A stretch of DNA of 64,000 bases from assembly GCA_001662655.1 (NCBI GenBank), contig KV460231.1; one strand, written 5' to 3'. Position numbers and translations under genes: made by a program. Positions 1 through 17,600 of this stretch are shown here, piece by piece. The notes beneath the pieces are model-generated. The model did no database searches. It was given only the letters and a program-made list of their open reading frames with translations, and was not told where the DNA came from. Source of the DNA: Pseudogymnoascus verrucosus (Eukaryota). Each line of letters starts with the position of its first letter. Positions within the stretch are counted from its first letter, which is position 1.

Positions 1-22
1 CCCTAACCCTAACCCTAACCCT
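1..22. repeat. Telomeric repeat (CCCTAA)n, left chromosome end
   Basis: Window opens with ccctaaccctaaccctaaccct, the complement of the canonical TTAGGG telomere. Confidence 0.95.
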
Positions 23-1301
23 CTCCACGCTTTATAAGCCTATGTTGGCATAGCACATCTGGCACAGCGTTCAAGGGGCTCCCGTCTATGTTAGTACCTG
101 CTAATAGGGTGGTGACCTGTGGTAGTGAGCAGCAGGCGTGCTGTAGGGAGCTAGGTTGCTCATGAGCCTGTGTATGCTCCTCCTCTCGCTCCTGGTGCTG
201 CTCTTCTGTACACCCATGGAACTGCCATAGCTGCCGCGCCACCTGCACTGCAGTTGGTAGAGGCATCTCGCCATCTTGTGCTTGTGGGCCCTAGTGGAGT
301 ATCGTTAGAGACTCTGTATGACTAACATGGTTCTAGGTATTACTACTGCTAACACTACTACTACTATTGACGCTTATGCTAGCGCTAGCGCCACTGCTAA
401 TAACAGGAGATTGCTTAGCAGGCGTAGTAGCTTGAGGAGGTGTGCTTAGCATCTCCTGTAGCTAGTTAGTAATGGCAGCCTGCTTTGGGATAAGTGGTAG
501 AGACTGCCGCTTCCTCTTAGTACCACTCCCTTATGAGCTGGCAATTGACTGCGCGTAGACGATAGATTTTCTAGCGTCTGTCTGTAGACGTTAGGACATC
601 TCACTTAGTATCTGACTTTGGACCTTAGACTCCTCATCACCTTGAACATTCCACGACATCTCGTCCTCGTCATGTACACTTGCTTGTCTTGTAGTCGTAT
701 CCTTCTCTATAGTAGTTGAGGCTATACCTTTAACGGTCGCTTTAGTAGTGGTTGTAGCTTTAGGAGTGGCTTTGGCGGTGGCACTAGCACAAGGGTTAGC
801 AGTAGAACTCATAATAGACAATAGTAGTAAGTAGCTCTCTATCCTGGCTCACCTACTAATCGACTGCCTCTCTGTCGTTTCCTCACCTTCCTGTCGTAGT
901 GCTTGTAGTATAATTGCTGCCTCGCGCTCTTCATTGACCTCATCTTGTACATTAAGTCTCTAGACTACCTCCTCAACCTCTCTCTCCTCTGTTTGTGGCA
1001 GGCGCGCTAGCGCTGGCACCACCTATAGCTGCTAAGGCTGCAGCTAGCCTTGTGATATAACAATGCCTTGCTTAACTGTCGGTTGTATGTCATCTAGTGT
1101 TAGTAGGTTAAGGTTGCTCCGTATGCCAGTAGCTAGGCTTGTTAGAGGAGGTGCATCCTACTGTGCTGGATTGTAGAGGATGAACTAGGCGTTCTAAGAC
1201 GAGGATTGCTGTTAGCGCCGTTAGTAAGTTATACGATTGCTAGCTAATTTAGCTGCTGCTGCATCTTGAGAATTGTGGTATTTCCTTAGTCGGCCAACCA
1301 T
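23..1301 (-). pseudogene. RIP-decayed ~425-codon hypothetical ORF truncated by the telomere
   Basis: ATG at 1301 (MVGRLRKY...) is in frame with ORF-track pieces 591..821 and 15..266. Internal stops are mostly TAG/TAA at likely Gln/Trp codons. The frame runs into the telomere repeat. Confidence 0.65.
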
Positions 1302-1410
1302 TTTTAATAGGAAGAGGAAGGAATAGGTGATAAGTAATAGTTGTAATGGCGCTAGGGCTAGCACTAGCACTAGCACGTATAGTTGGAATAATTGAGGGGT
1401 TAGAAGTAAG

Positions 1411-1507
1411 GAAATAATACTAATTAGGAATAGCTTAGTTCTACATTAGGAAACAATCCTAATTAGGTATCACGTCTCGCTTAAATGTAGAAATAATCCT
1501 AATTAGG
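1411..1507. repeat. Three 18-bp repeats (gaaayaatmctaattagg) at ~40-bp spacing, with palindromic core CCTAATTAGG
   Basis: Copies at 1411-1428, 1450-1467 and 1490-1507. Confidence 0.75.
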
Positions 1508-1710
1508 TTTAGTAGTGGTGCACGCGCCACTGCTACCGCCACCGCCTGCCTAATTAAGCGACAATACTCATGCTTCTGCCACCTAACCCTCACCCTATGT
1601 AACGGCCATTGAGTAGCGTGGGTTTATTCCCGTTAGTGTACATGCTCATCTGCGTCTGCAAGCAGCCTGCTGTAGTACTGGCAATGGTACTGTGAATGGT
1701 TACAAACCGT

Positions 1711-2066
1711 CTACATGGCTCCGTTTAGAGTATCGACAGTCCACCTAAGTCTTAGAATCTCCTGTGCTAATGCCGTATTTGTGTGCTAAAGAGCCTAAAC
1801 ATTTGACCTTAATTGAAGATCACGCGCTACAAACCCATCTAACTAAGATCAAAGCTGTTAGGCGGTTTGCTAATGCTTAGTTTTCTTAACAATGAGGGCG
1901 TTAGCTATGTGTTGCAGATCTGTAGTAACGGCAACGTTTTCGTTAGTCATAACAGGAGTTTTCGGCTGTTTAAAGTCCATTAGATCTGGCTACAGCATAG
2001 TTAGTAAGCTAGATAGTAAGAAGTAAAGAAAGTAAAAGCTTTTACCATAGTCGTGATTGTCTCCAT
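1711..2066 (-). pseudogene. Possible small RIP-decayed coiled-coil gene
   Basis: METITTM, then a GT..ctaac..AG intron, then a frame (DLQHIANAL...TALAQEILRLR) broken mostly by RIP-type stops. Confidence 0.3.
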
Positions 2067-2832
2067 AGCTAAGATCAACTTGTAGCTAAAGTAAATGTGA
2101 GAAATTTTTACTCTTAACTTGCTATCCTAAGCTAATGGACAATAAGTTATCCTCTCTTAGTGAACCCTATAGGGGTAACTTAATGGCAGTAGCATGTATA
2201 TGGCCCTCGTAATCCTAATGGTAGGTAATTTGTTAGTGCATTACAATCCTAATGCTAACTAGGCCTATGTAGGCAATTAGTTGTATTTCTAACTAACTTG
2301 CTATTTACTGTATACCTTGAAGATTCCATAACGCTAGTTGTAAACATATGCCTAATTCCTAGGCTGTGATGTTCACTGTCATAAACGTAGGAATATGTCC
2401 CTTAAATTTTGGTTTTCGAGGGAGACATTTAATAAATACTAAAATAAGTTAAATCGGATAAAATACGACAGTCCATTAGCTAAGAAGCATGGACCTATTA
2501 AACTTGACATAGTTAAGGTCTACTAGAAGAATGCGCCTACCTACTAGAGACTAGATTCTATTACGCTTCCTATGTACGAGCGTTATCATAAGAGAAACAA
2601 TGAAAGGCAACAGTTAAATGAGCATCGTAGTAGTTAAGCAAATTATGTTCTTAGGCTGTCCTTACATTTGCTATAGGGAGCTTATAATGCTTTACTAGCT
2701 AGATTAGGCAACTTCCCTTATTAGCTCTCACTTCCTAATATATATTATGCAACATTAAGTAACAACTTTATATTTAATAGTGAAGTATTTAATTCATAAT
2801 AGCTACCTAAAAGTGGGTGACCCTTAGCAAGA

Positions 2833-2902
2833 AGGTGGCCTGTAAGATGTAGGTTGCCTATAAGATGTAGGTGGCCTATAAGAAGTAGGTGGCCTATAAG
2901 AT
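2833..2902 (+). repeat. 18-bp tandem repeat, ~4 copies (aggtggcctataagatgt)
   Basis: Copies start at 2833, 2851, 2869 and 2887. Confidence 0.85.
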
Positions 2903-2997
2903 TCACGTCTAGCTCCTAAAAAGAGATATAAAGAATCGGTACACCTTCTTAACTAGTGTTATAAGGCTAGTTCTAAGATAACCTCCTATTCATTAAA

Positions 2998-3445
2998 ATG
3001 TCCATAGGTTTTAGGCAACCTAAGCAGCCTATTAGCTTCGGCTCGAATCGTCTAGAGGGGTTTAATAGCTTTTCCTAGCCAACTTCTACCCACTTAGTTT
3101 CTAAACAAAAACATTATATTATAGAAATAGAAGAGTCTAAAGCAATAGTAGCTAGCCTTATGAAGATAGAGCAAATTATTGCTAATTAGCGTTAAAACTT
3201 AAAGAATTTTAGGATAACTAAGGATCTTGAGACTGAAAAAAAATATATTAAAAACATTAAGATCTATATGGATCTTGTTAAGGAAAATATTAAGAAAAAG
3301 GCCTATAAAAATCACGCTAAGTTTCAATCTATCTTAGATAAAATAGGTAGCTTTGTCACGGGTGGCTAAGGGCAAAGCAACAAGGCAAGGTGGCAGGAGA
3401 AGCAACTAAGTAGACAAACCATTAGTAACTTATTTTAAAGTTAAT
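2998..3445 (+). pseudogene. RIP-decayed hypothetical ORF ending at the left TIR of element 1
   Basis: ATG at 2998; Lys/Glu-rich helical frame with TAG/TAA interruptions up to the TIR. Confidence 0.3.
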
Positions 3446-3928
3446 TAACGTGCATCCCTACATTAAGGGACGCACCCCGTGACGGGACAAATATTAGTAC
3501 TTTGAATTTAGTTGATTCTAAATTTGTTGAATCCATTGAAAATTCTAGTATTTTTGTGTTAGTTATGTTATGTAACTACTCTTAAACAGCCTAAACCCTA
3601 GCTACTCTAAAATTTACGATCGCGTCGTCGCCATCGCGCCTAATTGCGGATAGTGTCAATTTAAAGTATAATAGAACCCCTTAACCTACAGCACTACCAC
3701 GAGCTCTTTAAACCTTTCAAACTAACATAACACTTTAATTTAGGTTCCTGAGTCTTACTACAATGCTATAAAATCATCTTAGCCTTGTAGTGACTAGGGA
3801 ATGCTGTGTTATGCGACGTCTCCACATAGGTTGGTACCTCTAGATTAAGCGATTAAGGAGCTTGTAGCTGCTAAGCTGTGGCTGTATATGGCGGCCTATG
3901 AAGCCTTACTATAAAATTCCGTGCCCCG
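3446..3928 (+). repeat. Left TIR of element 1 (family copy A)
   Basis: Aligns with 8151-8632 (direct) and with 6852-7301 and 13698-14179 (inverted). Confidence 0.9.
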
Positions 3929-4137
3929 ATCATTTATGCATTTAAGCGGCCACACTAGAAGCAACATGGGTTATGCAACCATGCCTAAAGTCTGCCCTTT
4001 AGGCGCTAAAGTCAGCCTTTTGAGGCTAAGTGCAGACAACATGCTTTATCGTCTAGTACGACAAACCTGTCTTTCACTCCCACTCTCTAGCATTCTTTCT
4101 TCACTTCATGTAGGATAATAGGCAAGCCAACTTCATC

Positions 4138-6765
4138 ATGAGCTTTGGATTTAGCGTGGGCGACTTCATAACTGCAATCGAGCTTGCGAACAAGATCTAG
4201 AAGGAATTCGTAGATGCGCTAAGTCAATTCAAGGATATCTCAGATGAGTGCGTTATTTAATAAGAATTCGATCTCTGCTGACTATTATATCCAAATAGGA
4301 TTAGAAGTCTCTCGATCGTCCTATAAGATGCCGACGTTGCCTTTCTAGAACAAGAGCTTAACACCGACTAGAAAAGACACTTAGAAGACATCGACAAAGG
4401 TTGCCGAAATGTTCTCTACGAGCTACAACGAATACTAGACAAAAATAGCGAACTCAGTTCTAAAAGTGGGAGTGTCGGCAAGAGAATCAAAAGAGGGTGG
4501 AAGAGGCTTAACTAGAAGCCGGAAGACATCGACGAGCTTCGGAGTCGTATCAGTACAAACATTAATTTATTGAACGCGTTCAACGGACGACTTACTCGAG
4601 ACAACGTGGTTAAGTTAGTACGGCACCAAGAAGATGAAGAACATCAAACAGCAGTCGACTGGCTCACCCCAATTGACTTCGACTTCGCTACTCAACAGAG
4701 CAACTTCATTAGTCGGCGGCTCTCCGATAACGCTTCTCCGAAATTGCAGAGTCACTTAGACAACCTCGGAAGCAAAGTCGGGATTCAATCCCAAAATACA
4801 GCGGCGCTCAAAGACCTTGATGAGCATGATGAGAGCATATCTGACTTGGAAACTCAACCCAGATTGCAAACTCTCGAAGGCTCTTCCGAGTATGAGCCTT
4901 CTGAGGCTTCTATGGAAGACGGCAGCGTTTTTTCGCTGTCTCAAAGCATCTCTTCGAAGAGCTCTGCACACGGTGCAGAGGGAGCAACTTGTGAACTTGT
5001 CATACTTTTGATGGAGAATACGGAACTGCGCAATTTCCATCCACCCCTACGCCAGAACTTCGAAATTACCGCTTTCAAATCCGAGCTGCATCAGTTACTT
5101 AAAGTATTCTCAAAGGACCTCTCAAAAGAAGCATTGATTCCAATTGAAAAAGAAAGTGTTCGCTTTGTCAGCCAACTAAGGCGACGGGTGACGCATACTA
5201 TTGGGCAAGAAGTCTTCGGCTTGAAAGATCAGTCCTTGCTCCAGTCAATCAGTCAACAGCAACAGCTAGACGCAAGAGAGAGGATTGAGAAATTCTTGAA
5301 GGATCTAATCCAGTCAAAGGGCAGCGGTGATGAATTGTCATTACAGCATGAGCATACGTCAGATAACGATAGCTCTGACGATGAATACGAATTGGAACCT
5401 TTTTCTAATTTTGAACTTGTGAAGAAGTTTCTCATCAACAGCAAAGCCTTTGAAAAGTTGCGAGTCAGCATCAGTAAGTTAGAAGCGCAAGGGGAAGAGT
5501 CAAATACAGAGATGCGGTCTCGCCACAACGTGATCGAGTTGGAGAGCAAGATTGGGAAGGACGAAAAGCTGTCAGATATAGGGGTTAATCAAAGCCCATT
5601 GAGCAGAACGGTGATACCAGAGTCGCGAACAATTCTCCAAGCTGGAAGAATAAATGTTTTCGCCACGCTACTGCGATGTTCTCGGACTTTGCTTCGCCTC
5701 TCCCGTCCCAAGCTGGAAATTGGATATCGGCGACTGGAATGGCAATGTGATTGTGGTATGCCACTCTATGGTGACTTCAGAGGTGACCCTGAAGAAATTA
5801 GCAAGCTCGTTAGAGAGATTCAAGCTCACGGATATGCCGTTACACAGACTTGTCACGGAACAAAACAAATGCCAGCGGATTCGGGATGGACCACTGCCTC
5901 AAACTCGGCTGTATCTGTACCCCTAGGATTAAACACATCTCAAACAACACAGAACTCCTGTCTTAATTCCACTGGCACTTCGTCTAGAGCACTTGGAGAG
6001 ACACGAAATCCAACGGTTGGTAGTACAGTCGCCACAACATCTCTGACACCAGTTACGGATAATAGGTCAAAATTCGTAGCGCTATGCGTGAACACAGGTC
6101 CATTCCAAAAGACATACGATGAGATTGATATATCTTCCACTCCCAAAAACACCCAAATGTTTCAGGACTTCAAAAAGACGTACGAAGCATGCGTCGGCTC
6201 CCGGAGGAACCTACTAAGAAGATGGCTCACGAAGCCTATAGACATCGAATTCATTCAATTCGCAGTGGAAGGCCTCAGGCGTGTCTACCCCATCCCTGGG
6301 TCACCTGATTGTACGATCTGTGCTCACGCAGAGAAGAAGGATAGACTTGTCGCCGCACGCAAATACGAGCCTCATCTCAATGCTGTAGCTCTAACCCATC
6401 CACCTATTCCCCCAGATCTATTCTTTCACTTGTGGGAGTGTCCGGAACACATAACTCCTACAGTGCAGAATTTGTGGCTTAATCGTCTGCCAAAAAAGCT
6501 AGATGAGAAGCTTGACAAGGTGTGTCTGGGGACACGACCAGATGGCGAGCTGATTCTTGGGTGGGGAGTACTTGTGATTGAGGGTCTGCATAGACGGAGA
6601 ATATTACGATTGACTATCGCTATTGTGGCGTTGAGCATGGTCATCTCGGTGGCCTATTCGGCTGGTATGAAAGATGTGTCCAGTGGGTTTGCAATTGGTG
6701 CTCTTCTTGTAGGATGTTGGACCTTATTTATAGCTGCACTATACTCCGAGTGGATGGCACGATGA
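4138..6765 (+). pseudogene. Chimeric gene: fungal STAND N-terminal (SesA/HeLo-like) domain fused to an uncharacterised WxCxCG domain with two C-terminal TM helices; 5' exons RIP-damaged, 4570-6765 open
   Basis: MSFGFSVGDFITAIELANKI start at 4138 and intron ~4248-4298. TAG stops occur only in the part duplicated at 8840-9340. The open 731-aa frame contains RRLEWQCDCG, PPIPPDLFFHLW, LNRLPKK, GWGVLVIE and two hydrophobic helices. Confidence 0.75.
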
Positions 6766-6851
6766 TCCAAAAATCAGGGGTACTTATTGTTGGTTATGGC
6801 TACAATGAGGGCTGATAGCATGTTCACCCTGTCAGTGAGTGAAGATAAAGC

Positions 6852-7301
6852 AGGCCACCACACACAGCCACACCTTTATTGCCACGTGACCAGGAATCTT
6901 CGCTTAATTTAGAGCCAACCCATACGACGACGTCGCATGACACAGCACTCCCTAGTCACCACATGGCTGAAAATGATTTTTCAGCATCATGGTGAGACGG
7001 GAGCCCAGATCAAAAAGTTATATGATTTTGAAAGGTGCAAAGAGCTCGTGGTGGTGCTGTAGGTCGAAGGGCTCTATTATGCTTCGAATTGACGCCCTCT
7101 GCAATTAGGCGCAACGGCGACGACGTAATCGTAAATTTCATAGTAGCTGCGGTTTAGACTGTTTGGGAGTAGTCATACAACATGGCTAACACAAAAACAC
7201 TAGAATTTTCAATGGATTTAGAAATTTATAATCAATTGTATTTAAAGTACTAATATTTATCCCGTCACGGAGTGCGTCCCTCAATGCAGGGATGCACGTT
7301 A
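6852..7301 (-). repeat. Right TIR of element 1 (family copy C)
   Basis: Reverse complement aligns with 3446-3897. Confidence 0.9.
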
Positions 7302-7854
7302 GGCGTGTCCACACTGCTATTGCCTCGTCGACTCGCTTAGAACTCTCGTATATGATGCTAATCCATCTAGCGAAGTCTTTAGCTTCATCCCACTTTTTGC
7401 TACTAAGAAAGCTGTCGTGAATACTATGATAGAAAGCAAAGACGGTTTCCACGTGGTTGGGAAACCAATCTAAAGATTCTAGGAACTTAGAAAGCCGGGT
7501 GTCGTGCAACTTCTAAACATCTTTAAGAGAAACTTCCGCCTAGTTTTTTATGAGTATGATGATTAGTCGATAATGCCTAAGGGCTGCTTGTCGTGAGTTG
7601 CGAGATACCTAAAGAAGAGGAGGGATGAAGTATTCGGCCTCTAAGTAGCAGCATGGTATAAATCGAGGTTCGAAATAAGCAAAATCCCATATGTAGAACT
7701 GCAACTTAGCTGGCAACTATAGGAATAACAAGAATTGAGAGGGTATCATCTCATTATATGTATTTAATAGCACTTTAATGACGGTAGGGACAAAGCGATT
7801 TATAAAGCAGGCTGAAACGCTATCGAGAGACTGTAAGTTAGAGAGCTTTATCAT
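7302..7854 (-). pseudogene. 2EXR-domain protein pseudogene, 3' end cut by TIR copy C
   Basis: ATG at 7854. The frame reads FLLFL*LPAKLQFYIWDFAYFEPR...PPLL*VSRNSRQAALRHY (2EXR-like LPxExRxxIW and ESRxxAL pattern), is in frame with ORF 7186..7509, and hits the TIR at 7301. Confidence 0.6.
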
Positions 7855-8150
7855 GAGTAGTGTAGAAAATGAGGTGACCTAGCGTCATATCGAAGTCACT
7901 AGACTGTTTGCTTGCAAAACTTAAGCTTAAAGATGTAACTTAGAATTGACAATAATCGGCTAGATCTACAATGCTAATTTGCACAAGTGTCTAGTAATGG
8001 ACCCTACATACCGAGGGAGGTACAGAGAGAGGTAAGAACTAAGAGAGGTAGAATTACAGCTCACCCTAAGACTAGCTTTCCCTCTACCTCCCCCTCCTAA
8101 CCTTCTTCTAAAACCTGCTAGAGTCAGCTCTCGTGTAGCGTAATAGGAGA

Positions 8151-8632
8151 TAACGTGCATCCCTACATCAAGGGACGCACCTCGTAACGGGACAAATATT
8201 AGTACTTTAAATTCAATTGATTCTAAATTAGTGAATCCATTGAAAATTCTAGTATTTTTGTGTTAGTCATGTTGTGTGACTACTCCTAAACAGCCTAAAC
8301 CCTAGCTACTCTAAAATTTACGATCACGTCGTCGCCGTCGCGCCTGATTGCGGAGGGCGTCAATTTGAAGTATAATAGAACCCCTCGATCTACACTACCA
8401 CCACGAGCTTTTTGCACCTTTCAAACTTATATAACACTTTGATTTAAGTTCCTAAGTCTTACCACGATGCTAAAAAATCATTTTTAGCCTTGTAGTGACT
8501 AGGGAGTGCTATGTCATGCGACGTCTCCACATGGGTTGGTACCTCTAGATTAAGCGATCAAGGAGCTTGTGGCTGCTGAGCTGTAGCTGTGTGTGGCGGC
8601 CTCCGAAGCCTTGCTATGGGGTTCCGTGCCCC
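8151..8632 (+). repeat. Left TIR of element 2 (family copy B)
   Basis: Inverted match to 13698-14179, ending at GTTCCGTGCCCC. Confidence 0.9.
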
Positions 8633-8839
8633 GATCATTCATACATTCGAGCGGCCACACTAGAAGCAGCATGGGTTATGCAACCATGCTAGAAGTCTGC
8701 CCTTTAGGCGCTAAAGTCAGCCTTTTAAGGCTGAGCGCAGACAACATGCTTCGTCGCCTAGTCCGACAAATTCTCTAACTCCCACATTCTGTCATCCTTT
8801 CTTCCCTTCATGTAGGATAATGGGCAAGCTAACTTCATC

Positions 8840-11800
8840 ATGAGCTTTAGATTTAGTGTCGGCGATTTTATTTTAGTAATCTAGCTCGCGAATAAAATAC
8901 AGAAAGAATTCGTTAACGCGCCGAGTCAATTCAAGGCTGTCTTAGACGAGTACGTTGTATATAGAGGAGTTCGATCTTCGCCTACAATTACGTTTAAAAT
9001 AGGCTCTAAACGCTCTCTATCGTCCTTTAAGATGCTGACGTTGCCTTCTTAAAACAAGACCTTAATGATGACTAGAAGAGAGACTTAGAAGACATCGACA
9101 AAGGATGCTAAAATGTCCTTAACGACTTACAACGAATACTAGACAAACATACTGAATTTAATTCTAAAAGTGGGAGTGTCGGCAAGAGAATTAAAAGAGT
9201 GTGGAAGAGGCTTAAGTGGGATCTAGAAGACATTAACAAACTTTAGAGTCGTATTAGTACAAATATTGGTTTCCTCAACGCGTTCAACGGGCTACTTACT
9301 CGAGATAACGTGGTTAAGTTAGTACGGCACCAAGAAGATCAAGACCGCCAAACTGTCCTTGACTAGATCACCCTAGTCGATTATGCTCCCTAGCTAAACG
9401 ACTTTCTTACTCGGCGACAGGAGGGAACCGGGCAGTGGCTTCTAGACTCAACAGAGTACTAAACATGGGTAGAGACAAAGAAGCAGAGGTTATTTTGTCT
9501 AGGAATTCCTAGGGCGGGGAAGACAATTCTCACCTCAATTGTGGTAGAAGAACTTACTACTCGCTTTCAAAATAATAAGAGCATAGGTATTGCGTACCTC
9601 TATTGCAACTTCTAGCGACAGCACGAGCAGAAGGCTGAGGATCTACTCGCAAGTCTGCTGAAGCAGTTAAATCAAGGTCGGTCGTCTCTGCTAGACACTA
9701 TTAAATCTCTCTATGATAGCCATTAAGTCAAGCGGACGCAGCTATCATTTGAGGAAATCTCAAGAGCTCTTCAGTTAGTAGCTACCATGTACTCGAGAGT
9801 CTTTATTGTCATCGATGCTCTTGATGAGTGCTAAGTATCTTATAACTGCTAGAAAAGATTCCTGTTAGAGTTGTTTAGCCTCTAGGCTAAATGCGGAGCG
9901 AATCTCCTTGCAACTTCGAGATTTATTCTAGAAATCACCGAATATTTTCAGGGAAGCATATTATTAGAAATACGAGCTAGTGAACATGATGTGCAGAGGT
10001 ATGTAGAGGGCCATATGGCATATCTACCATCCTTTGTCGGACGTAGTCTAGATTTGCGAGAGGATGTCAAGACTGGTATCATAAAGGCTGTTGACGGCAT
10101 GTATGTGGTTCTTATTGTAATTATCTACACAAGGACTTACTTTGCCTAGGTTCTTACTTGCTCAGCTTCACCTAGATTCCTTGATCAGGAAGAGATCACT
10201 AAAGGCTGTCTAAGCTGCTCTTAAAAATTTGCCTTCTGGTTCCAATGCGTATGACCATGCGTATAAGGATGCAATGATTCGAATTAAAGGACAAGTAACC
10301 GACTAGGAGGACCTTGCTAAGCAGGTCCTATCATGGATAACCTGTGTAGAAAGACCATTAACTACAATAGAACTTCAGTAGGCACTTGCTATGGAAGTAG
10401 GCGAGTCTGAATTAGACGAAGACAATCTCCTAGAAATTGAAGATATGGTTTCTGTGTGCGCGGGATTAGTTACCATTGATGGGGAGAGTAACACCATCCG
10501 CTTAGTTCATTATACAACACAGGAATACTTCGAGCGAACGCAAAGCCATTGGTTCCCGAATGCGAAGACTGATATCACGACTATCTGTATCAGCTACCTC
10601 TCATTTGATGTTTTTGAGCGTGGGTTTTGTCAAACGGACGACGAATTTAAGGAGCAGTTGCAGTCAAATCATTTTTTTGAGTACGCCGCACGAAACTAGG
10701 GCCACCATGCTCGCATGGCTTCGAGTTTTAGCTAAGCATTGAGCTAGACGGTTGTTAATATTCTTACAAGCAAAGCTAAGGTTGATGCATTGAGCCAAGG
10801 GTTATTTGCTACCAAAAGCTATTCATTAGACTGGAATTACAGCTAGAAATTCCGGAAGAAAATGACTAGACTGCATTTAGTAGCATACTTTGGGGTTATG
10901 ACAGTCATCAACCTACTGCTTAATACAGGTAAGGTCAATGCCGACTCTAAGGATGAAGATGGCTGAACGCCACTATTCTGGGCTGCATAGAACGGGCATA
11001 AGGCCGTCGTCATGCTGCTGCTTGATACAGGCAAGGTCGACGCCGATTCTAAGGATAGACATGGTGAGACGCCGCTATTCTAGGCTGCACGGAACAGGCA
11101 CGAGATCGTTGTTAAGCTGCTGCTCGATATAGGCAAAGTCGATGCCGACTCTAAGGACAGATATGGTCAGACGCCACTATACTTAGCTGCACGGAATGGG
11201 CATGAGGCCGTCGTCAAGCTACTACTTAATATAGGCAAGGTCGATGCCGACTCTAAGGACGGAGATGGTTAGACGCCACTATTCTTAGCTGCACGGAACG
11301 GGCACGAGGCTGTCGTCAAGCTACTGCTTAATACAGGCAAAGTTGACGCTGATTCTAAGGACGGAGATCGTAAGACGCCGTTATTATCGGCTGCATAGAA
11401 TGGGCACAAGGTCATTGTTAAGCTACTGCTTGATATAGGCAAGGTTAATGCTGACTCTAAGGATGAAGATGGCCGAACGCCACTATTCTAGGCTGCATAG
11501 AACGGGCATAGGGCCGTCGTCATGCTGCTTCTTGATATAGGCAAGGTCGACGCCGACTCTAAGGATAGACATGGTAAGACGCCGCTATTCTAGGCTGCAC
11601 GGAACGGGCACGAGGCTGTCTTCAAGCAACTGCTTGATATAGGCAAGGTTAATACCGACTCTAAGGATACAGATGGTGAGACGCCGCTATTCTAGGCTGC
11701 ACGGAACGGGCATAAGGCCATCGTCATGCTGCTGCTCGATACAGGCAAGGTTGACGCCGACCCTAAGGACAGATATGGCCGGACGCCACTATACTAGGCT

Positions 11801-12454
11801 GCACGGAACAGGCACGAGGCTGTATTTAAGCTGCTGCTTGATATAGGCAAGGTCGATGCCGACTCTAAGGATAGATTTAGCTGGACGCCACTATACTGGG
11901 CTGCACGGAATAGGCACGAGATCGTTGTTAAGCTGCTGCTCGATATAGGCAAAGTCGATGCCGATTCTAAGGACAGATATGGCTAGACGCCGCTGTTCTA
12001 GGCTGCACGGACTAAGCACGAGATCGTTGTCAAGCTGCTGCTTAGTACAGGCAAAGTCGATGCTGATTCCAAGGACAGAGTTGGTTAGACGCTACTATTT
12101 TGGGCTGCACGGGACGGGCACGAGGCTGTCATCAACCTACTGCTTAATACAGGTAAGGTCAATGCCGACTCTAAGGATGAAGATGGCCGAACGCCACTAT
12201 TCTAGGCTGCACGGGACGGGCATAAGGCCGTCGTTAAGCTGCTGCTCGATATAGGCAAGGTCGACGCCGATTCTAAGGATAGACATGGTGAGACGCCGCT
12301 AATCTGTGCTGCATAGAAGGGGCATGAGGCTGTCGTTAAGCTACTGCTCAATATAGGCAAGGTCTATGCCGACTCTAAGGACAGAGATGGCTAGGCACCG
12401 CTGTTATTAGCTGCTAAGAACGGGCACGACTTGGTCATGCGGCAACTTGAGTAA
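8840..12454 (+). pseudogene. NLR-like gene: SesA/HeLo-like N-terminus, NACHT (GPI-deacylase-type winged helix), ~15-16 ankyrin repeats; inactivated by RIP
   Basis: MSFRFSVGDF start; GTGQWLL; Walker A GIPRAGKT (likely GIPGAGKT before RIP, ~9503-9526); Walker [31 protein letters not shown]...[12 protein letters not shown]; ankyrin TPLxxAAxNGH repeats; introns ~8950-9002 and ~10102-10149; many TAG/TAA stops. Confidence 0.9.
10935..12430 (+). repeat. Tandem array of 15 highly similar 102-bp (34-aa) ankyrin-coding repeats
   Basis: The motif gay-tct-aag-gay recurs every 102 bp from ~10943 to ~12371. Confidence 0.9.
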
Positions 12455-13697
12455 TCGCAAGACTCACTATCATGAAATAATGACCAAATTACCTCCCCCC
12501 TACCCACCTCTGTTATAGCTAGCCTCCTTTAATACTCATTTTAGTGCCGCAGTTTATACATACCATTGAATTATAAATGCTTTGAAATCAGTAGGTCACA
12601 AAACGAATGACGATATGGCAAATAAGCCCGCCACCCATATTCCTAGGGTGGAGGTGATCGGATATTCAATTTTCTAGTGCAGCTGCGAGGTCACGCCTTT
12701 ACCTCATGTGTTGTGGTTTGTGTTAGGGTGGAGGTACGGTACGGTACGATGCTGTGCTGTGCTATTGCAAATGCAAAACCGACTTTTTTCATATATATCC
12801 CACGTATCAAGGCAGTTCCGCTTCGAGCGCTAGATAGTGAAAGACGTATCTATACGATATTTGCAGTATCATGTCCATCCTTGCGCTGCACAGGTCAGCG
12901 TTGCCTAAGTCGGCGTCGCTGTTCGTTAGGTAGTTAGTCGGAAGGATTAGATAACTCGGTAGGGACATCGATGTTGTTAGCGGTGTCGAGTGGCTCCGTC
13001 GTAAGCATCGCTTGGTAGTTTTGGTCAGACGTGTCGAGTGCGGTGGTGGAGGTGCTAATTGTGGATTCCGAAGTTTCTGCAACCGGTTAGAAATGGGTAT
13101 TAGGAAGAGCTGCGTGAGAAAAGTGTAGCATAAGCCATTTGGGCTGACCAACTCGCTCGCTGGCTGTAAGACTTGTGTCAGGCACAGTCCTGATCAACTA
13201 TACACAGCCAAATAATGTCAGAAGCGAGTGTACATCGTAAGAATTGGGGGTGGTTTACGCTAACTAAAAATCGCTAGTCGCTTTGCCTGTAGGTATTAAT
13301 TCGCGTGTCAGCCATGCATGAATTTGCGCCTTGTAGCAGCCACACGGTTGATGACGATCTCCCGCGTGGTTGTGAGAGCTTAGAGCTCAGGTACAATTCC
13401 TTTACATGTTTTGGGAATAGTAAGAGCTTGATGGTGGAGCTGTGGTGGAGGAACCCTGTTACGCGATAAAAGCAGACCCTCTGCAAATCTGCCATGAGGG
13501 CGATGACGCAAACATAATGTTCTAGAAGAGGGATCTGGGGTGTTCGGGGTGGCTAGAATACGATGTGAGCAAAATTATAGGAGATGTTGATATGCATATC
13601 TCTCAAGCAAAGGAGAAAGCGGCCGATTTGGCAGATATTGGCCACTTTTTGCTCCAGTTTGAGAGGGCAACTTAAAGTCCAATTCGGAGTATATCAG

Positions 13698-14179
13698 GGG
13701 GCACGGAACCCCACAGCAAGGCTTCGCAGGCCGCCACACACAGCCACAGCTCAGCAGCCACAAGCTCCTTGATCGCTTAATTTGGAGGTATCAACCCATG
13801 TGGCAACGTCGTATGACACAGCACTCCCTGGTCACCACAATGCTGAAAAATCATTTTCAGCTTTGTGGTGAGGCTCGGAAACCCAGATCAAAGTATTATA
13901 TGAGTTTGAAAGGCACAAAGAAGCTGGTGGTGGTGCTGCAGGTCGAGGGGTTCTATTATGTTTCAATTGACGCCCTCCTCAATTAGGCGCAACGGCCACG
14001 GCGTGATTGTAAATTATAAAGTAGCTGGGGCTTGGACTGTTCAGGAGTGGTTATACAACACGACTGTCACAAAAATACTGGAATTTTCAATGGATTCACA
14101 AATTTAGGATCAATTGAATTCAAAGTACCAGTATTTGTCCCGTTACGAGGTGCGTCCCTCGATGCAGGGATGCACGTTA
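13698..14179 (-). repeat. Right TIR of element 2 (family copy D, least RIP-mutated)
   Basis: Reverse complement aligns with 8151-8632 and retains CpA/TpG sites that are TpA in copies A and B. Confidence 0.9.
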
Positions 14180-14630
14180 ACTCTAAATTTGTAAATCCAT
14201 TAAATGTTTTCTATATTTTTGTGTTAACGCATGCATTGTGGCTGACTAGAAATATCAGAAGACTTCGATAGCGATGATATAGTACCCATCATTTCTTCAG
14301 GCACTATTATTCTGAATACTTATTCTTTACCCTAAATTGAAGTATCCTCTGCTAGATAATAAGGCACATGTATCTTGGGGGCAGAAGCCGTCAACTCTCA
14401 GGGACTTTCGAACGCCAGCCTAAACCTGACCAAAGTGATCAGACGCACGGCCAGCGATCTGACATATCAGCAGCTGGTCAAGTCTTTCGGTAGCATCCTT
14501 AGGCATCTCGCCAACAACATCTTGCAGGTCGCGGCAAACCCTCTTCCATTACATCACCCATCGAAGAATATCCATTGAAATATCAACAACACTTGTGCCT
14601 ATACTAGATTTGCACACCAACCGTAAAGCG

Positions 14631-17600
14631 CTAAAAATTCCACTGTTTCATCCAGATCGCCATCCACTGCGGCCCAACTACTTCTAATGCTTCCAAACTA
14701 TTGCTTGCAGCCACAGCTTGCCGCACGTCTAGTCGTGCAATACTCCCCGACCTCGTCGTGCTTTGCCTATGGTGAAATTCTACTAGAGTGAGCGCCGGGT
14801 TCCTTGTGACACGGAGGGCCGGATCTGTTGCGGAGGCCTGCAGGGCGTCTATCCATACCGTAAAGGGCACAATTTGGATGTTTGTCTGCCCTCGATTGAG
14901 ATGAGCCTGCACGGTTGGGAGAAGGGTCTTCCAGCTTGTGATGCGTGGATTCAGGACATGGTAAACCCGCGGTTTGACAGGCGGCTTGGTCTCAGAGGCT
15001 CCTACCAACTCGACTATGATTTTCGAAAGAACGTCAACGGGAATCCAATCCACCGTGTCAATGGCACCAAGGGTCTCGGGGAGCAAGCCAAGGTACTTGG
15101 AGCTGGACACTAAACTCGGGAGCCATTCTCGCTTGTTCCACACGCCCTGTTCCTGAGTCGGTCCAGCGATTTGGCCAACGCGGATCACAGTTACGGGGAC
15201 AGCGGATCTCGCACTTGCGAGATCCAGCAGGCGCTCTGCAACGTGCTTTGACTCACAATATCCAAGGGGGGTAGCGGCACTGTAGTCATAGATGATTTCC
15301 TCGGGGACCTTGCCAGTATGATTTTCAAGCCAATTGGTGACAGTGGAAGCGCTAGAGATGAAGTAGAAGTTTGCTGCCTTCTTAGACGCGACGCTAAGAT
15401 CAATTAAGTGCCGCACGCCACGGATATGAACATCGAAAGACTCAATCGATGATACGAAGTCGACTTGCCACGCGTTATGAATAATGTGCGTTGCGGACGA
15501 CAGCAGCAATCCGTACTCATTTGCTGTCAGTCCCAGCTCACGCTCACCCAGGTTGACCTGGTAAAATTCTACGCGGTCGGCAGCGAGGTTGGTGGTCAAT
15601 CCACGCCCCGTGTTGATGTCGACCTGCCGTTGGTGACTACAAACAGATCGATTGAGGCATATGACCTTACCCACCTTGGGATGCGCGAGCAAGGATTCTA
15701 GTAGATGAGAGCCCAGGGATCCAGTAGATCCGGTTAGAATGACGCTCCATGTATCATCCTGCACAGGTGAATGCCGAGCGACTGGCAGATCCATCGAATA
15801 TTTTTCAACCAGTGCTCGCATCTTCTGCGCCCGAGACTCCTCCACTAGGTTTTCCGAGTGGCCAACACGACCTGGGTTGAACTGGATGCCTTCAATGGCT
15901 TCGATGCCTTCGCCTTCTAATATAATCGCACTGAGCAACTGGGACTTCAATGCAACCCTGCGCGATAGTACGAGGAGGGAAGCGTTTCCAAGGATCTCGA
16001 ACAACGGCACATCCGCCTTCATCTCGCGCAACATCCAGTTGCGAAGCTCGACTGCGACGAGTGAGTCCACACCATATGCTGCTATTGGACGGTCTGAGTT
16101 GATATCGTCCCTTGGTATCATGAGAGATTTGGACAGCTTAGCTATGATCGCCTCGCATACGATCTGTGACGCCTCGGAGGTAGTTTTGGCTCTCTCCAGG
16201 GAATGGCGAACGCTTACGGCTGTATCAGTGGGTTCGCCCAGCAGCGTGGCCGACCTGGGGAGGAGATGAGAGAATTTGGGATCTCGAAACCAGAAAGGGA
16301 TATCACCAGTGGGCGCGGTCTGGCCAAGCTTCGAATCTAGTATTTCGCGCGTATACAGTCCGGTGACGATCTGACAAGCCTGATCTCCGCCAGATCGAGT
16401 GATTGCAGATTGCAGTATGGCCATTAGTTCCTCCACGTGGATGTCGGCATAGCCTTGCCTCTTTAGGCTTGTCCGAGCCCCTTCATTCTCGGACACGAAC
16501 CCCGCCCCTACGATGACGCCAAGGTCCAGAGTAACTGCAGGAAGCCCTTGTGCGGTCCGGTAATGTGAAAGGGCATCTTGGAAGGAGGATGCCGCCGCAT
16601 AGTTGCTTTGGCCAGGGTTGCCCGATACGCTGACGGCAGAGGCAAGCATCACAAAAAAATCGAGCTCCGACTTGGAAAGTTGTTCGTGGAGATTCCAGGA
16701 ACCTTGGACTTTGGGACGAAGAACTCGCTCGTAGTCTTCGACTCCCATCTTCTCATACAGGGTATCCTACCTAGTGTTAGTTAAACCGCGATAGTGGATA
16801 GGGAAGAGCGCACCTTCAAAACCATGGCGCACTGTATAACGCCACGGATTGCAGGCATTCGCCTGGCGATTTCCTCCAAAGCTTTCGCCAACTGTGCTTC
16901 ACTACTGACATCGCAGTTATAGGTTGCGACGTTCACCCCTCCTTCCTCGAGGTCCCTCACAATCTGCCTCGCGCTCTCTTTATCCAGACCACTGCGAGAG
17001 AGAAATATGATGTTCTTCGCGCCGTGCTGCATCATCCAACGAGCAATCGCTCTCCCGAGACCACCCAGTCCACCCACGAGCAGGTAGGAAGCATCGTCTC
17101 GGAAATATGGCTGGACTACAGCTCGTGGTATAACCTAGATAGTCAGTCAGATTCTCATTTGGAAGTGGGATATTATACCTTGACTTGATCCTCTGCCTTT
17201 GGTATCACGACTATCTTCCCGGTATGCTTCCCCGATTGCATCAGACGGAAAGCAGCCTCAATTTCCGACATGGAGAATACAGTGATTGGCGTGATTGGGC
17301 TCAGCACCTTTCCCCGGAACATTTTCATGATTTCAGACAAGGTCTTGGCTCCGTGAGACATCCTGTGGTAGAAGATGGCCTCCAAATCAATCGAGGCAAA
17401 CGTCACATGGCGCATAAACGGCGCCATTTCCAGGCGACTGTTTGCAATCATATCACGCTTACCGATTTCAACGAACCTACCAAACATGGCCACGCAGTGC
17501 CATGTTTGTCGAAGGGCCTCGCCAGCCAGGGAGTTTAAAATAACGTCGACGCCCCTGTTGTGGGTCATCCTCATGATCCCGGCGGCGAAGGAGGTGTCTC

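What the first reader, a model, noticed from the sequence alone, without database searches (positions are those of the whole stretch)
4138..4730. Domain-swap junction: NLR N-terminal module grafted onto an unrelated protein just before the NACHT domain
Seen: 3446-~4635 is a close direct repeat of 8151-~9340 (TIR, 5' region, exon 1, intron, exon 2). Protein-level similarity continues to WLTPIDF..QQSNFISRR (4719). The NLR then enters GTGQWLL/NACHT, while this gene switches in frame to an unrelated ~680-aa region. RIP stops are confined to the duplicated part. Inference: a snapshot of exon shuffling inside the TIR element that created a new SesA/HeLo-like fusion.
Basis: partly seen in the sequence, partly recalled or inferred. 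Interest (0 to 1): 0.75.

Follow-up and report, generated by a model that had tools for sequence, protein, structure and literature searches.

The report
Old NLR-head fusion, killed by RIP
A fungal gene that joins the front end of an immune-receptor-type (NLR) gene to an unrelated membrane-anchored module is a real chimera, but the joint is old and shared with other species, and this copy, inside a transposon-like element, has been inactivated by repeat-induced mutation.

Summary
Window 3446-~4669 repeats 8151-~9373 (85% over 1186 aligned bases). Gene A (4138-6765) follows NLR gene B through the linker ...QQSNFISRR (4719), then switches in frame to a 681-aa module with no Pfam family. Its four stop codons all lie before 4516.

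The "snapshot of exon shuffling" reading does not hold.
- The same joint (TPIDFAPQQSDFISRR|L..SPKLQS) occurs in the module's homologues in five other Pseudogymnoascus species.
- Their first ~286 residues are borrowed from a DUF8035-family gene, so they are the derived form and the NLR-head form is older.
- A second copy of the module, 13-15% diverged, appears in contigs of the probable source genome.
- A 97.7%-identical chimeric copy spans the joint in another organism's assembly. Two of the window's four stops are sense codons there.
- A's head exon is no closer to B than to NLR genes on unrelated metagenome contigs. Only the left inverted repeat and 5' flank are specially close.

Both genes lie in elements with ~480-bp terminal inverted repeats. 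This is a multi-copy family that also carries an intact NLR on a metagenome contig.

Verdict: an old domain fusion, pseudogenised here by RIP-like mutation. The NLR-carrying repeat-bounded elements are the more novel lead.

The parts
3446..7301 (+). Element A: 3856-bp unit bounded by terminal inverted repeats, carrying chimeric gene A
   Evidence: Inverted repeats I1/I3/I6. Self-blastn arms 3446-3852 vs 7301-6900. Homology to B and to metagenome elements stops exactly at TAACG.../...CGTTA.
3446..3927 (+). Left terminal inverted repeat of A (~482 bp)
   Evidence: 482-485 bp match to B's right arm 14179-13698. 89% identical to B's left arm, with 1.5% transversions. Relative to L009/L026 it has 44 C>T/G>A changes against 13 reverse transitions, 29 of the 44 in CpA/TpG context.
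3928..4137 (+). 5' flank/leader shared with B
   Evidence: 87.5% identity to 8633-8839, 6 transversions in 208.
4138..4247 (+). Gene A exon 1 (MSFGFSVGDF...), with stop TAG at 4198-4200
   Evidence: B has CAG at the homologous codon.
4248..4298 (+). Intron (GTGCGT...ATAG), shared with B 8950-9002
   Evidence: The frame is restored only with this splice.
4299..4665 (+). Exon 2 part encoding the NLR-type (HeLo-like/SesA/PigL_N-like) head, with stops at 4324, 4369 and 4513
   Evidence: 71-82% identity to the N-termini of NACHT-ANK NLRs. Stops X9, X24, X72. In X2 record 8, 4324 is C (CAA) and 4514 is G (TGG).
4666..4719 (+). Pre-NACHT linker TPIDF[DF]ATQQSNFISRR, shared by NLRs and by the module's homologues. 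It includes a 6-bp tandem duplication, GACTTC x2, at 4675-4686.
   Evidence: The gapless BLASTP alignment to P0002 starts here. P0005 reads TPIDFAPQQSDFISRR|L. NLRs read WLTPIDFATQQSDFISRRE. Duplication.
4719..4720 (+). The seam: last linker codon (R) | first module codon (L)
   Evidence: The Pfam NPHP3_N match in B begins at residue 141, two residues after RR.
4720..6765 (+). 681-aa module plus stop, open and free of RIP signature. N-half ~4720-5679. C-half 5680-6762.
   Evidence: Translation. No Pfam family at E<=1 except a chance-level hit. 77% identity to P0002. 667 representative relatives. RIP index negative.
6586..6762 (+). C-terminal hydrophobic helical hairpin (predicted membrane anchor)
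   Evidence: AF2 helices 305-330 and 333-360 of the C-half model. Hydrophobic tail sequence. Only this part finds structural look-alikes, all generic helical hairpins.
6850..7301 (-). Right terminal inverted repeat of A
   Evidence: 452 bp match to B's left arm. The multiple alignment shows similarity to within ~12-30 bp of the inner end.
8151..14179 (+). Element B: 6029-bp sister element with 482-bp inverted repeats (8151-8632 / 13698-14179)
8840..12454 (+). Gene B: same head type + NPHP3_N/NACHT + ~15 tandem 102-nt ankyrin-type repeats, heavily broken by stops
   Evidence: ATG 8840 and intron 8950-9002. 13 stops in 366 codons 9004-10101. Pfam NPHP3_N 1.3e-32. 102-nt repeat array 10790-12529. 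Stop read at 12452-12454.
14182..14226 (+). Orphan fragment of the inverted repeat (positions 72-115) abutting B's right end
   Evidence: blastn 82.6% over 46 bp.

Best explanation
Interval 4138-4730 holds the head and the seam of an old domain fusion, not a fresh one.

Gene A has three parts: (i) an N-terminal helical head of the HeLo-like/SesA/PigL_N kind found on a large Leotiomycete NACHT-ankyrin NLR family; (ii) the conserved linker that in those NLRs immediately precedes the NACHT module; (iii) in place of NACHT and repeats, a 681-aa uncharacterised module ending in a two-helix membrane anchor.

Shown:
- The seam after ...ISRR is exact and in frame.
- The same seam, with the same NLR linker remnant, is found in homologues from five other Pseudogymnoascus species.
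- Their first ~286 residues come from a DUF8035-family gene.
- A second, diverged copy of the module with a different upstream part appears in contigs of the probable source genome.
- A near-identical chimeric copy spans the seam in another organism, and two of this copy's four stops are sense codons there.

Inferred order of events:
1. An NLR of this family, probably already inside a repeat-bounded element like B and L026, had its NACHT-repeat part replaced by the module. This was before the sampled Pseudogymnoascus species radiated.
2. A duplicate then had its head replaced upstream of 'TPIDF' by a DUF8035-type head. That gave the form annotated in other species.
3. The head-bearing left ends of the repeat-bounded elements kept exchanging. 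A and B share a specially close left repeat and 5' flank, but their head exons are only family-level alike.
4. In this genome the multi-copy parts (inverted repeats, head) were hit by RIP-type C>T/G>A mutation, which put four stops in the head. The low-copy module escaped.

Likely function of the intact form (inferred from homology only): a membrane-tethered carrier of a HeLo-like cell-death/executioner head, with the C-terminal module doing the regulatory or sensing job in place of the NACHT-repeat part. In this window the fusion protein cannot be made.
For: Seam and frame.

Shared seam:
- BLASTP of A to P0002 is gapless at 77% from TPIDF... onward.
- P0002/3/8 read SLDFVPQQSDFISPR|LSSSTSPKLQS and P0005 reads TPIDFAPQQSDFISRR|LFSGASPKLQS.
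- NLRs read WLTPIDFATQQSDFISRRE/AGTGQW.

The other-species form is a later mosaic:
- P0003 residues 1-286 are 75% identical to residues 1-284 of P0312 from the same species.
- 57 of 64 hits to that head carry the precomputed family PF26118/DUF8035, and 5 are the P0002-type proteins themselves.

Age:
- In a quick ML tree of 17 rows, (A, P0006) is sister to a clade of all six P0002-type sequences (SH-aLRT 97 and 100). Oculimacula P0009 falls outside.
- P0009 has an NLR-type head, 'WLTPIDHAPQQSD', TPR repeats, then the module.

Independent data:
- X2 record 8 covers 4001-5624 with 38 differences.
- X3 record 16 covers 4534-4787 with 1 difference.
- X2 record 9 aligns only from 4681 on (142 differences). 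Its first 809 letters do not align.
- X1 record 2 covers 5748-6333 with 76 differences, and depth doubles over 4542-6850.
- At 4324 and 4514 the X2 chimeric contig has C and G (CAA, TGG).

The coding similarity between A and B is only family-level. Over 4300-4635 (336 bp), transversions are 6.0% for A-B, 3.9% for A-L002/L003 and 3.6% for A-L006. In the left inverted repeat A-B is the closest pair at 1.5%, against 3.2-5.2% for other pairs.

RIP:
- Polarised counts for A's left repeat are 44 against 13, with 29 of 44 in CpA/TpG context. For B's left repeat they are 33 against 15.
- In head exon 2, A has 11 against 3 and B has 24 against 4.
- The six listed window-versus-X2/X3 differences in 4089-4514 all have T or A in the window where the other has C or G. 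I read all six as lying in CpA/TpG context, from the sequence.
- RIP index.

Element family:
- Contigs with unlike flanks end exactly at 3446 in X1 (5), X2 (6 plus 3 at 3445) and X3 (5). X1 also holds a third element with 3492 letters of other cargo.
- The left repeat lies upstream of the head gene in L007/L009 and L026. L026 8081-12925 is a complete element with open NACHT-ankyrin frames.
Against: - Polarity rests on parsimony from protein sequences. I could not obtain DNA of the other-species homologues or of the second copy, so no dated tree of both copies exists.
- No annotated NLR-head + module protein turned up in the five NCBI Pseudogymnoascus proteomes or among short fragments. The older form is therefore documented only in this window, in contigs of runs X2 and X3, and as a TPR-containing variant in Oculimacula.
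- A's head is only 41% identical to the Oculimacula head. That homologue could be an independent fusion.
- The tree is the quick substitute for an unfinished careful search. It was built on whole proteins, including their non-homologous heads.
- Only two of the four stops could be checked in the relative.
- Contigs cannot show expression.
- The head matches Pfam PigL_N/SesA only below the curated cut-offs.
- The function of the module is unknown: no Pfam family and no fold match.
Confidence: 0.68

Rival explanations
1. First reader's reading. A recent exon-shuffling event inside the repeat-bounded element took element B's (or a twin's) left end and NLR head and grafted it onto an unrelated resident gene, creating a new fusion caught shortly after it formed.
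For: - A and B share the left inverted repeat, 5' flank, exon 1, intron and exon 2 in the same order.
- The left repeats are the closest pair of all arms compared, at 1.5% transversions.
- Homologues of the module in five other species have a different head.
- RIP-type damage marks the shared part only.
Against: - The seam and linker remnant are shared with those homologues, whose own head is borrowed from DUF8035 genes.
- The chimera is present in another organism at 97.7% and in a soil metagenome.
- A's module is 13-15% diverged from the genome's second copy and branches outside all six P0002-type sequences.
- A's head exon is not closer to B than to NLR genes on metagenome contigs.
Confidence: 0.08
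2. Reverse polarity. The DUF8035-head form is the older resident gene. Gene A arose later, when a copy of its 3' part recombined with an NLR-bearing repeat-bounded element inside the ~50-bp linker homology. This re-created a continuous NLR head + linker in front of the module.
For: - A lies in a multi-copy, apparently mobile element, while the DUF8035-head form is the one annotated in 5 of 5 NCBI species that have the module.
- A/B DNA identity falls at ~4636-4666, inside or next to the motif shared by both gene types. A homologous crossover would leave that pattern.
- The alignment of the second copy to A starts at 4681 in X2, with a joint at 4720 in X1.
Against: - It still needs an earlier NLR-head ancestor to explain why a 16-residue NLR linker sits between a DUF8035-type head and the module.
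- A's module lineage splits off before the six P0002-type sequences diverge.
- Oculimacula P0009 and fragment P0045 place NLR-type head/TPR parts in front of the module in another genus.
Confidence: 0.17
3. Assembly artefact. The joint at ~4636-4720 is a mis-join between an NLR paralogue and another gene, caused by the repeated head.
For: The head and inverted repeat are multi-copy in the genome: summed contig depth is 3-10x at 3257-3770 and 8140-8396. No listed X1 contig spans 4632-4720; record 1 ends at 4632.
Against: X2 record 8 (1624 letters) runs 4001-5624 across the joint with 38 differences. X3 record 16 runs 4534-4787 with 1 difference. These come from other studies. The reading frame is continuous, and the joint matches that of the homologous proteins.
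Confidence: 0.02

Closest known systems
Combinatorial domain architectures of fungal NLRs (N-terminal effector + NACHT/NB-ARC + ANK/TPR/WD40). Wojciechowski et al. 2022, PMC9815663 (passages read). Sordariales survey PMC12258605 (passages read). Dyrka et al. 2014 (recalled, not read).
   Same: The head of gene A is of the HeLo-like/SesA kind used by fungal NLRs. It is cut at the canonical boundary before the NACHT module. The head recurs with different partners. The general principle of domain re-assortment is known.
   Different: Gene A has no nucleotide-binding domain and no repeats, so it is not an NLR. The partner is a membrane-anchored module with no Pfam family. A serial head replacement at one conserved linker is documented here, and I did not see that described in the passages read.
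HeLo / HeLo-like (PF14479, PF17111) and SesA (PF17107) cell-death heads, related to the MLKL executioner domain (PMC9815663, passages read)
   Same: The same N-terminal helical domain class. The head sits at the extreme N-terminus and begins MSFGFSVGDF.
   Different: Pfam matches of this subfamily are below the curated cut-offs: P0009 PigL_N 25.3 bits against 27.2, and P0020 E 0.027. No amyloid motif or partner NLR was examined. Activity is untested.
Transposon-borne host-type genes in fungi: ToxhAT carrying ToxA (PMC6737239, PMC12506042) and Starships carrying NLR-like cargo (PMC9156397). Search listing and abstracts only.
   Same: A repeat-bounded, multi-copy element whose cargo is an ordinary-looking cellular gene rather than a transposase.
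   Different: These elements are 3.9-6 kb with a single gene, ~480-bp inverted repeats and no transposase or tyrosine recombinase. No target-site duplication beyond a possible TA. Mobility is not shown.
Association of high-internal-conservation NLRs with transposable elements and RIP in Podospora (PMC13449251; abstract and passages read)
   Same: Gene B is an NLR with highly similar tandem repeats. It is embedded in repeat DNA and riddled with RIP-type mutations. That paper suggests transposable elements may move such genes.
   Different: That paper reports a statistical enrichment of transposable elements in gene flanks. Here a specific inverted-repeat-bounded unit encloses the NLR and recurs in other organisms' contigs.
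Plant NLRs with integrated exogenous domains (PMC5819176; abstract only) and Pack-MULE-type gene capture (recalled)
   Same: New combinations arise by placing foreign coding sequence next to NLR parts, or by capture between inverted repeats.
   Different: Here the NLR core is lost rather than extended. No 9-11-bp target duplication typical of MULEs was found.

Membership tests
Fungal NLR (STAND) protein - gene A | Central nucleotide-binding NACHT/NB-ARC domain | tested here: not met
   Pfam scans of the 749-aa frame and of the 821-aa exon-2 read-through found no NACHT, NPHP3_N or AAA match. The sequence after ISRR is homologous to the non-NLR proteins P0002-P0008.
Fungal NLR (STAND) protein - gene A | C-terminal superstructure-forming repeats (ANK/TPR/WD40) | tested here: not met
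   No repeat family in Pfam. No tandem repeat in 4720-6765.
Fungal NLR (STAND) protein - gene A | N-terminal effector-type domain shared with NLRs | tested here: met
   The 140 residues of exon 2 are 71-82% identical to the N-termini of proteins carrying NPHP3_N/NACHT and ANK.
Fungal NLR (STAND) protein - gene B | Effector head + NACHT + repeats in one frame | tested here: met
   NPHP3_N 1.3e-32 and NACHT 8.5e-4. 15 copies of a 102-nt unit encoding ankyrin-type repeats. The frame holds many stops (13 in 366 codons), so it is a pseudogene.
Pfam PigL_N/Helo_like_N (PF17111) and SesA (PF17107) | Score at or above Pfam's gathering cut-off | tested here: inconclusive
   The window's exon-2 read-through gave no hit at E<=0.1. 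Its close relative P0020 scored 0.027 and 0.031. P0009 scored 1.2e-5 (25.3 bits, cut-off 27.2) and 1.1e-4. Exon 1 could not be scanned joined to exon 2.
Cut-and-paste DNA transposon with terminal inverted repeats (non-autonomous) | Terminal inverted repeats with sharp ends | tested here: met
   ~482-bp arms. All ends begin TAACG... and end ...CGTTA in A, B and L026, and at the left end of L009.
Cut-and-paste DNA transposon with terminal inverted repeats (non-autonomous) | Several copies at different genomic sites | tested here: met
   Contigs with unlike flanks ending at 3446: X1 5, X2 6 (plus 3 at 3445), X3 5. X1 holds a third element with other cargo. Copies occur on metagenome contigs L007/L009, L026 and L001.
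Cut-and-paste DNA transposon with terminal inverted repeats (non-autonomous) | Target-site duplication | tested here: inconclusive
   No direct repeat of 3-10 bp flanks A, B or L026. A TA at both ends of 3 of 3 complete elements fits a Tc1/mariner-type TA duplication (family rule recalled). It cannot be told apart from the repeat's own first two bases.
Cut-and-paste DNA transposon with terminal inverted repeats (non-autonomous) | Cognate transposase, or empty sites showing excision/insertion | not tested
   No transposase frame in A, B or L026. The third element's 3492-letter cargo could not be read. No whole genome is held.
Repeat-induced point mutation (RIP) | Excess of C>T/G>A over the reverse transitions, in CpA context, limited to repeated DNA | tested here: met
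   Against outgroups, A's left repeat has 44 against 13 (29 of 44 in CpA/TpG) and B's left repeat has 33 against 15. The right arms show 28 against 21 and 22 against 20, so little bias. In the head exon A has 11 against 3 and B has 24 against 4. Indices. All four stops in A are TAR codons. One homologous codon in B is CAG, and two in X2 are CAA and TGG.
DUF8035 (PF26118) family - head of the other-species homologues | Homology of the first ~286 residues to DUF8035 proteins | tested here: met
   75% identity between P0003 and P0312 over 295 columns. 57 of 64 hits carry precomputed PF26118. The local Pfam scan listed PF26118 for 0 of 4 such proteins, so the family label rests on the precomputed annotation and source names.

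The most novel reading that the evidence does not exclude
The inverted-repeat-bounded units are a mobile, or recently mobile, element family of Leotiomycete fungi whose standard cargo is an NLR-type immune gene. The conserved head-linker boundary acts as a cassette junction. Exchange between elements and resident genes at this boundary swaps heads and sensor or anchor modules. Examples are NACHT-ANK in B and L026, the membrane module in A, and other cargo in a third copy. The element would then be a transposon-borne generator and disperser of new fungal immune or cell-death architectures.
Probability: 0.25. Interest if true: 0.75.

Novelty: new variant of a known kind. Interest (0 to 1): 0.45.

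Why it matters
Fungal NLR repertoires are known to be built from re-assorted domains, but the events themselves are rarely visible.

This locus gives a dated series at one conserved linker:
1. NLR head + NACHT-ANK.
2. NLR head + membrane module.
3. DUF8035 head + linker remnant + membrane module.

It also gives a concrete physical vehicle: a ~480-bp inverted-repeat element enclosing the NLR gene, also seen with an intact NLR on an unrelated metagenome contig.

Two things become testable. One is the recent suggestion that transposable elements move NLR genes. The other is the function of a large uncharacterised Ascomycota module family, which has 667 representative clusters and is fused to ANK, TPR, NACHT, HET, NDT80, Myb, GATA and kinase domains.

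As a stand-alone gene the window copy is an ordinary RIP-killed pseudogene.

Tried and rejected
- No whole genome is held for this window. Copy numbers and the second module copy could only be seen through contigs.
- No RNA holder was listed among the sequencing runs. All four runs laid were contigs, so expression and splicing across 4700-4740 could not be examined.
- A 30-base pattern of the repeat terminus found 0 stretches in metagenome contigs. The repeat was then found through loci fetched with the NLR head protein.
- A search for short proteins spanning the joint gave 166 hits, with the best 120 listed. Each listed hit covers at most 67% of the 230-residue query region; the rest are NLR head fragments. 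None reaches into the module.
- tblastn of the module against the 32 metagenome loci found it in 0 of 32.
- Pfam on the module gave only DUF4769 at E 0.67.
- The C-half fold model (pLDDT 79.9, pTM 0.75) had no Foldseek PDB match at E<=0.001. The best rows were weak ubiquitin-like, PB1 or RA-domain hits with probability <=0.44. The exhaustive structural search matched only the terminal helical hairpin, at Z<=7.7. The Atlas gave only unnamed Ascomycota clusters.
- I tested for RIP leakage or decay in the module. Of 21 differences from P0006 over 514 residues, 13 are A-derived, 5 are P0006-derived and 3 are ambiguous. Only 6 of the 13 can be explained by C>T/G>A. This shows no clear RIP and no significant acceleration.
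- I first thought A's right repeat was truncated by ~30-80 bp. The multiple alignment shows similarity almost to the inner end, so I dropped that argument.
- Earlier-findings look-ups gave nothing for this genome, only chance 3-of-83-word phage matches for the repeat, and nothing for the module.
- Literature searches listed no paper describing a small inverted-repeat element enclosing a fungal NLR. This is three keyword searches, not proof of absence.
Full report
**1. What is in the sequence**

The window holds two neighbouring units bounded by long terminal inverted repeats.
- Element A is 3446-7301.
- Element B is 8151-14179.
- The arms are about 482 bp (B: 8151-8632 against 14179-13698). 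All ends read TAACGTGCATCCC... / ...GGGATGCACGTTA.

The left ~1.2 kb of the two units is collinear. blastn gives 3446-4669 against 8151-9373 at 84.1%. MAFFT gives 85.1% over 1186 aligned bases in 3446-4635, with 132 transitions and 45 transversions.

Gene A starts at 4138, has a 51-bp intron at 4248-4298 and ends at 6763-6765. Gene B starts at 8840 with the homologous intron at 8950-9002. Both proteins begin MSFGFSVGDF / MSFRFSVGDF and stay alike to the linker.
- A then reads ...DWLTPIDFDFATQQSNFISRR|LSDNASPKLQ...
- B reads ...D*ITLVDYAP*LNDFLTRR|QEGTGQWLL...

In B the Pfam NPHP3_N/NACHT match starts two residues after RR. B goes on to about 15 tandem 102-nt ankyrin-type repeats.

A has four in-frame stops (4198, 4324, 4369, 4513). 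From 4516 to 6762 it has an unbroken 749-codon frame. B has 13 stops in the 366 codons of 9004-10101 alone.

**2. The damage is RIP-like and follows copy number**

Composite RIP indices are positive at 1-4000 and 8001-10000. They are negative at 5001-7000, like the single-copy genes at 15-25 kb.

I polarised changes with two metagenome copies of the repeat, L009 and L026.

| Arm | C>T/G>A | Reverse transitions | In CpA/TpG context |
|---|---|---|---|
| A left | 44 | 13 | 29 of 44 |
| B left | 33 | 15 | 16 of 33 |
| A right | 28 | 21 | 10 of 28 |
| B right | 22 | 20 | 6 of 22 |

In the head exon (4300-4635), against nine metagenome NLR genes, A has 11 against 3 and B has 24 against 4.

The head and repeat are multi-copy in the probable source genome. 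Summed contig depth is 3-10 times the single-copy level at 3257-3770 and 8140-8396. This explains why they, and not the module, were hit.

**3. What the 681-aa part is**

It has no Pfam family. An exhaustive HMMER search finds 667 representative relatives at E<=1e-3, 187 at <=1e-10 and 23 at <=1e-30.

The C-terminal ~360 residues form the C-terminus of proteins 219-1730 aa long. The N-terminal ~300 residues also occur on their own or with other partners.

I scanned 49 long relatives with Pfam.
- 34 had no family.
- 15 carried ANK (6), TPR+NACHT, TPR+Myb, Myb, NDT80 (2), GATA+RRM, HET, protein kinase, or PNP_UDP+DUF3597.

Closer relatives carry SesA+NACHT (P0011), T5orf172 (P0010) or a cold-shock domain (P0013-17).

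An AlphaFold model of the C-half (pLDDT 79.9, pTM 0.75) shows two small alpha/beta subdomains and a terminal pair of long hydrophobic helices, which I read as a membrane hairpin. No solved fold matches beyond generic hairpins. The Atlas gives only unnamed Ascomycota clusters.

So the partner is an uncharacterised, promiscuous, probably membrane-anchored module. It is not an NLR part, but it belongs to the same tool-kit of shuffled domains.

**4. The seam is shared, hence old**

The best full-length homologues are five Pseudogymnoascus proteins, P0002-5 and P0008, at 71-77% identity and ~980 aa.

BLASTP aligns gene A to P0002 without a gap from TPIDFDFATQQSNFISRRLSD... onward. The homologue sequences at the joint are:
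- P0002/3/8: ...SLDFVPQQSDFISPR|LSSSTSPKLQS
- P0005, the earliest-branching...TPIDFAPQQSDFISRR|LFSGASPKLQS

This 16-residue stretch is the canonical linker of the NLR family, WLTPIDFATQQSDFISRRE/AGTGQW in P0018, P0020, P0027 and P0196. The joint 'linker | module' at 4719/4720 is therefore common to gene A and these homologues. Gene A differs from them only upstream of ~4666.

**5. Which form is derived**

The first ~286 residues of the other-species homologues belong elsewhere. P0003 1-286 is 75% identical to residues 1-284 of P0312, a 728-aa protein of the same species.

A search with that head gave 64 hits.
- 57 are ~550-1100-aa proteins carrying precomputed PF26118 (DUF8035), from Leotiomycetes and Sordariomycetes.
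- 5 are the P0002-type proteins themselves.

My local Pfam scan did not list PF26118 for 0 of 4 such proteins, so that label rests on the precomputed annotation.

The other-species form is thus a three-part mosaic: DUF8035-type head, NLR linker remnant, module. A linker remnant stranded between two foreign parts is most simply a leftover of an ancestor with a complete NLR head, which is gene A's architecture.

The two heads are themselves remote homologues (hhalign probability 82%, E 1.1e-5, 25% identity over 106 columns).

Further evidence agrees.
- The quick tree places (A, P0006) as sister to all six DUF8035-head sequences, with Oculimacula P0009 outside (the careful search was unfinished, and whole proteins were used).
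- P0009 carries an NLR-type head, 'WLTPIDHAPQQSD', TPR repeats and then the module.
- Fragment P0045 also has TPR-like sequence before the module.
- P0009's head is only 41% identical to A's. It is of the subtype seen in the metagenome NLR L026. So heads have been exchanged repeatedly.

**6. Independent DNA**

Four public runs were laid as contigs.
- The probable source (X1) has a second copy of the module. Record 2 covers 5748-6333 with 76 differences. Depth doubles over 4542-6850. Compensating indels keep the frame.
- Organism B (X2) has both forms. Record 8 runs 4001-5624 across the seam with 38 differences (97.7%). Record 9 aligns only from 4681 on, with 142 differences, and its first 809 letters are unlike anything in the stretch.
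- A soil metagenome (X3) spans 4534-4787 with one difference.
- In the X2 chimeric contig, 4324 is C (CAA, not TAA) and 4514 is G (TGG, not TAG). The other two stops were not among the listed differences.

So the joint is not an assembly artefact. The chimera is not private to this genome. At least half of the stops are recent.

**7. How 'close' A and B are**

Transversions, which RIP does not make, are 1.5% in the left repeat and 2.9% in the 5' flank. They are 7.3% in exon 1, 7.8% in the intron and 5.9% in exon 2 to 4635.

Over 4300-4635, A is 6.0% from B in transversions. It is only 3.6-4.8% from six NLR genes on metagenome contigs (L002-L006, L009). At protein level A is 80-82% identical to P0020, P0018 and P0220 but 72% to B.

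In the left repeat A-B is the closest pair, at 1.5% against 3.2-5.2% for other pairs. The '1.2-kb repeat' is therefore a mosaic: a specially close left end joined to head exons that are alike only because the head family is highly conserved.

The A/B drop at ~4636 falls in the invariant VVKLVRHQED block. B's linker (WITLVDYAPQ.NDFLTRRQ) belongs to another NLR subtype, as in P0194. This suggests exchange among elements and paralogues rather than one duplication.

**8. The element family**

The 414-bp left repeat recurs at 78-84% identity just upstream of the head gene on metagenome contigs L007/L009 (identical over their overlap) and L026. That is 3 of 32 loci fetched with the head protein, or 2 distinct.

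L026 8081-12925 is a complete 4845-bp unit with 45-bp terminal inverted repeats, open head, NACHT and ankyrin frames, and no RIP signature. L001 has a fold-back of two repeat arms ~0.7 kb upstream of such a gene.

Contigs with different flanks end exactly at 3446 in X1 (5), X2 (6 plus 3 at 3445) and X3 (5). One X1 contig is a third element with 3492 letters of other cargo.

No target duplication longer than a possible TA was found, and no transposase. Mobility is therefore plausible but not shown.

In the three literature searches and the passages read, I found a statistical association of repeat-rich NLRs with transposable elements and RIP in Podospora (PMC13449251), and NLR-like cargo in giant Starships (PMC9156397, abstract). 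I found no description of a small inverted-repeat unit enclosing an NLR.

**9. Verdict**

The interval is the head and seam of a real chimeric gene. The fusion predates the radiation of the sampled Pseudogymnoascus species. The forms annotated in other species are later head replacements.

This copy is a RIP-inactivated allele. If anything is still made from it, it would be a head-less product starting at the first in-frame ATG at 4912, which is speculation.

The likely role of the intact protein is a membrane-tethered HeLo-like executioner regulated by the module. This is inferred from domain homology only (PMC9815663 passages on Helo_like_N/SesA and MLKL).

The novelty is moderate. The architecture and the serial head swap at one linker are a new variant of known NLR domain shuffling. 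The NLR-bearing inverted-repeat elements deserve a follow-up of their own.

Noticed in passing
L026:8081-12925: A complete 4845-bp element on a metagenome contig. It has the same termini (TAACG...CGTTA), a 414-bp left end 78% identical to the window's, and open head, NACHT and ankyrin frames. It shows no RIP signature. Its head is only 44-48% identical to A and B, so the repeat is more conserved than the cargo.
   Followed up: partly
L001:1693-2249: A fold-back of two repeat arms (93- and 42-nt inverted pairs, MITE-like) lies ~0.7 kb upstream of an NLR-head gene at 2964-3587.
   Followed up: no
window 14182-14226: An orphan piece of the inverted repeat (its positions 72-115, 82.6% identity) directly abuts B's right end, in the orientation of a left arm. 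B's left flank has no matching other half, so this is not a simple nested insertion.
   Followed up: partly
window 3000-10700 (run X1, record 4): The probable source genome holds a third element of this family: a 4084-letter contig with the left repeat start, 3492 letters of cargo unlike A or B, and then the right repeat. The cargo could be the missing transposase or another gene. It could not be read.
   Followed up: no
window 4675-4686: A 6-bp tandem duplication, GACTTC GACTTC, gives 'DFDF' in A's linker. B, the NLRs and the homologues have a single DF or DY.
   Followed up: partly
window 12455-13697: About 1.2 kb lies between gene B's stop and its right repeat, with no gene assigned. The only frame of 110 aa or more (12810-13193, minus strand, 128 aa) has no Pfam match. 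The RIP index is negative at 13001-14000, unlike the rest of B.
   Followed up: no
window 14634-23192 (minus strand): A large highly reducing polyketide synthase gene (KS, AT, DH, methyltransferase, ER, KR, ACP and a terminal reductase domain, by Pfam) lies immediately right of element B.
   Followed up: no
window 26000-50000, e.g. 31196-32428 (minus strand): This is a long AT-richer stretch with positive RIP indices. It contains a DUF3723 frame (Pfam 1.5e-39), a family I recall as a Starship accessory gene. It also has ankyrin-repeat frames at 43634-45576.
   Followed up: no
window 58301-60088 (minus strand): A 596-aa frame with a T5orf172/MUG113 domain. This is the same domain that is fused to the membrane module in metagenome protein P0010.
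   Followed up: no
proteins P0079, P0086, P0076, P0123: The module's C-half, with its terminal hydrophobic hairpin, ends proteins that carry DNA-binding domains (NDT80/PhoG, Myb, GATA). This architecture is reminiscent of membrane-tethered transcription factors.
   Followed up: no
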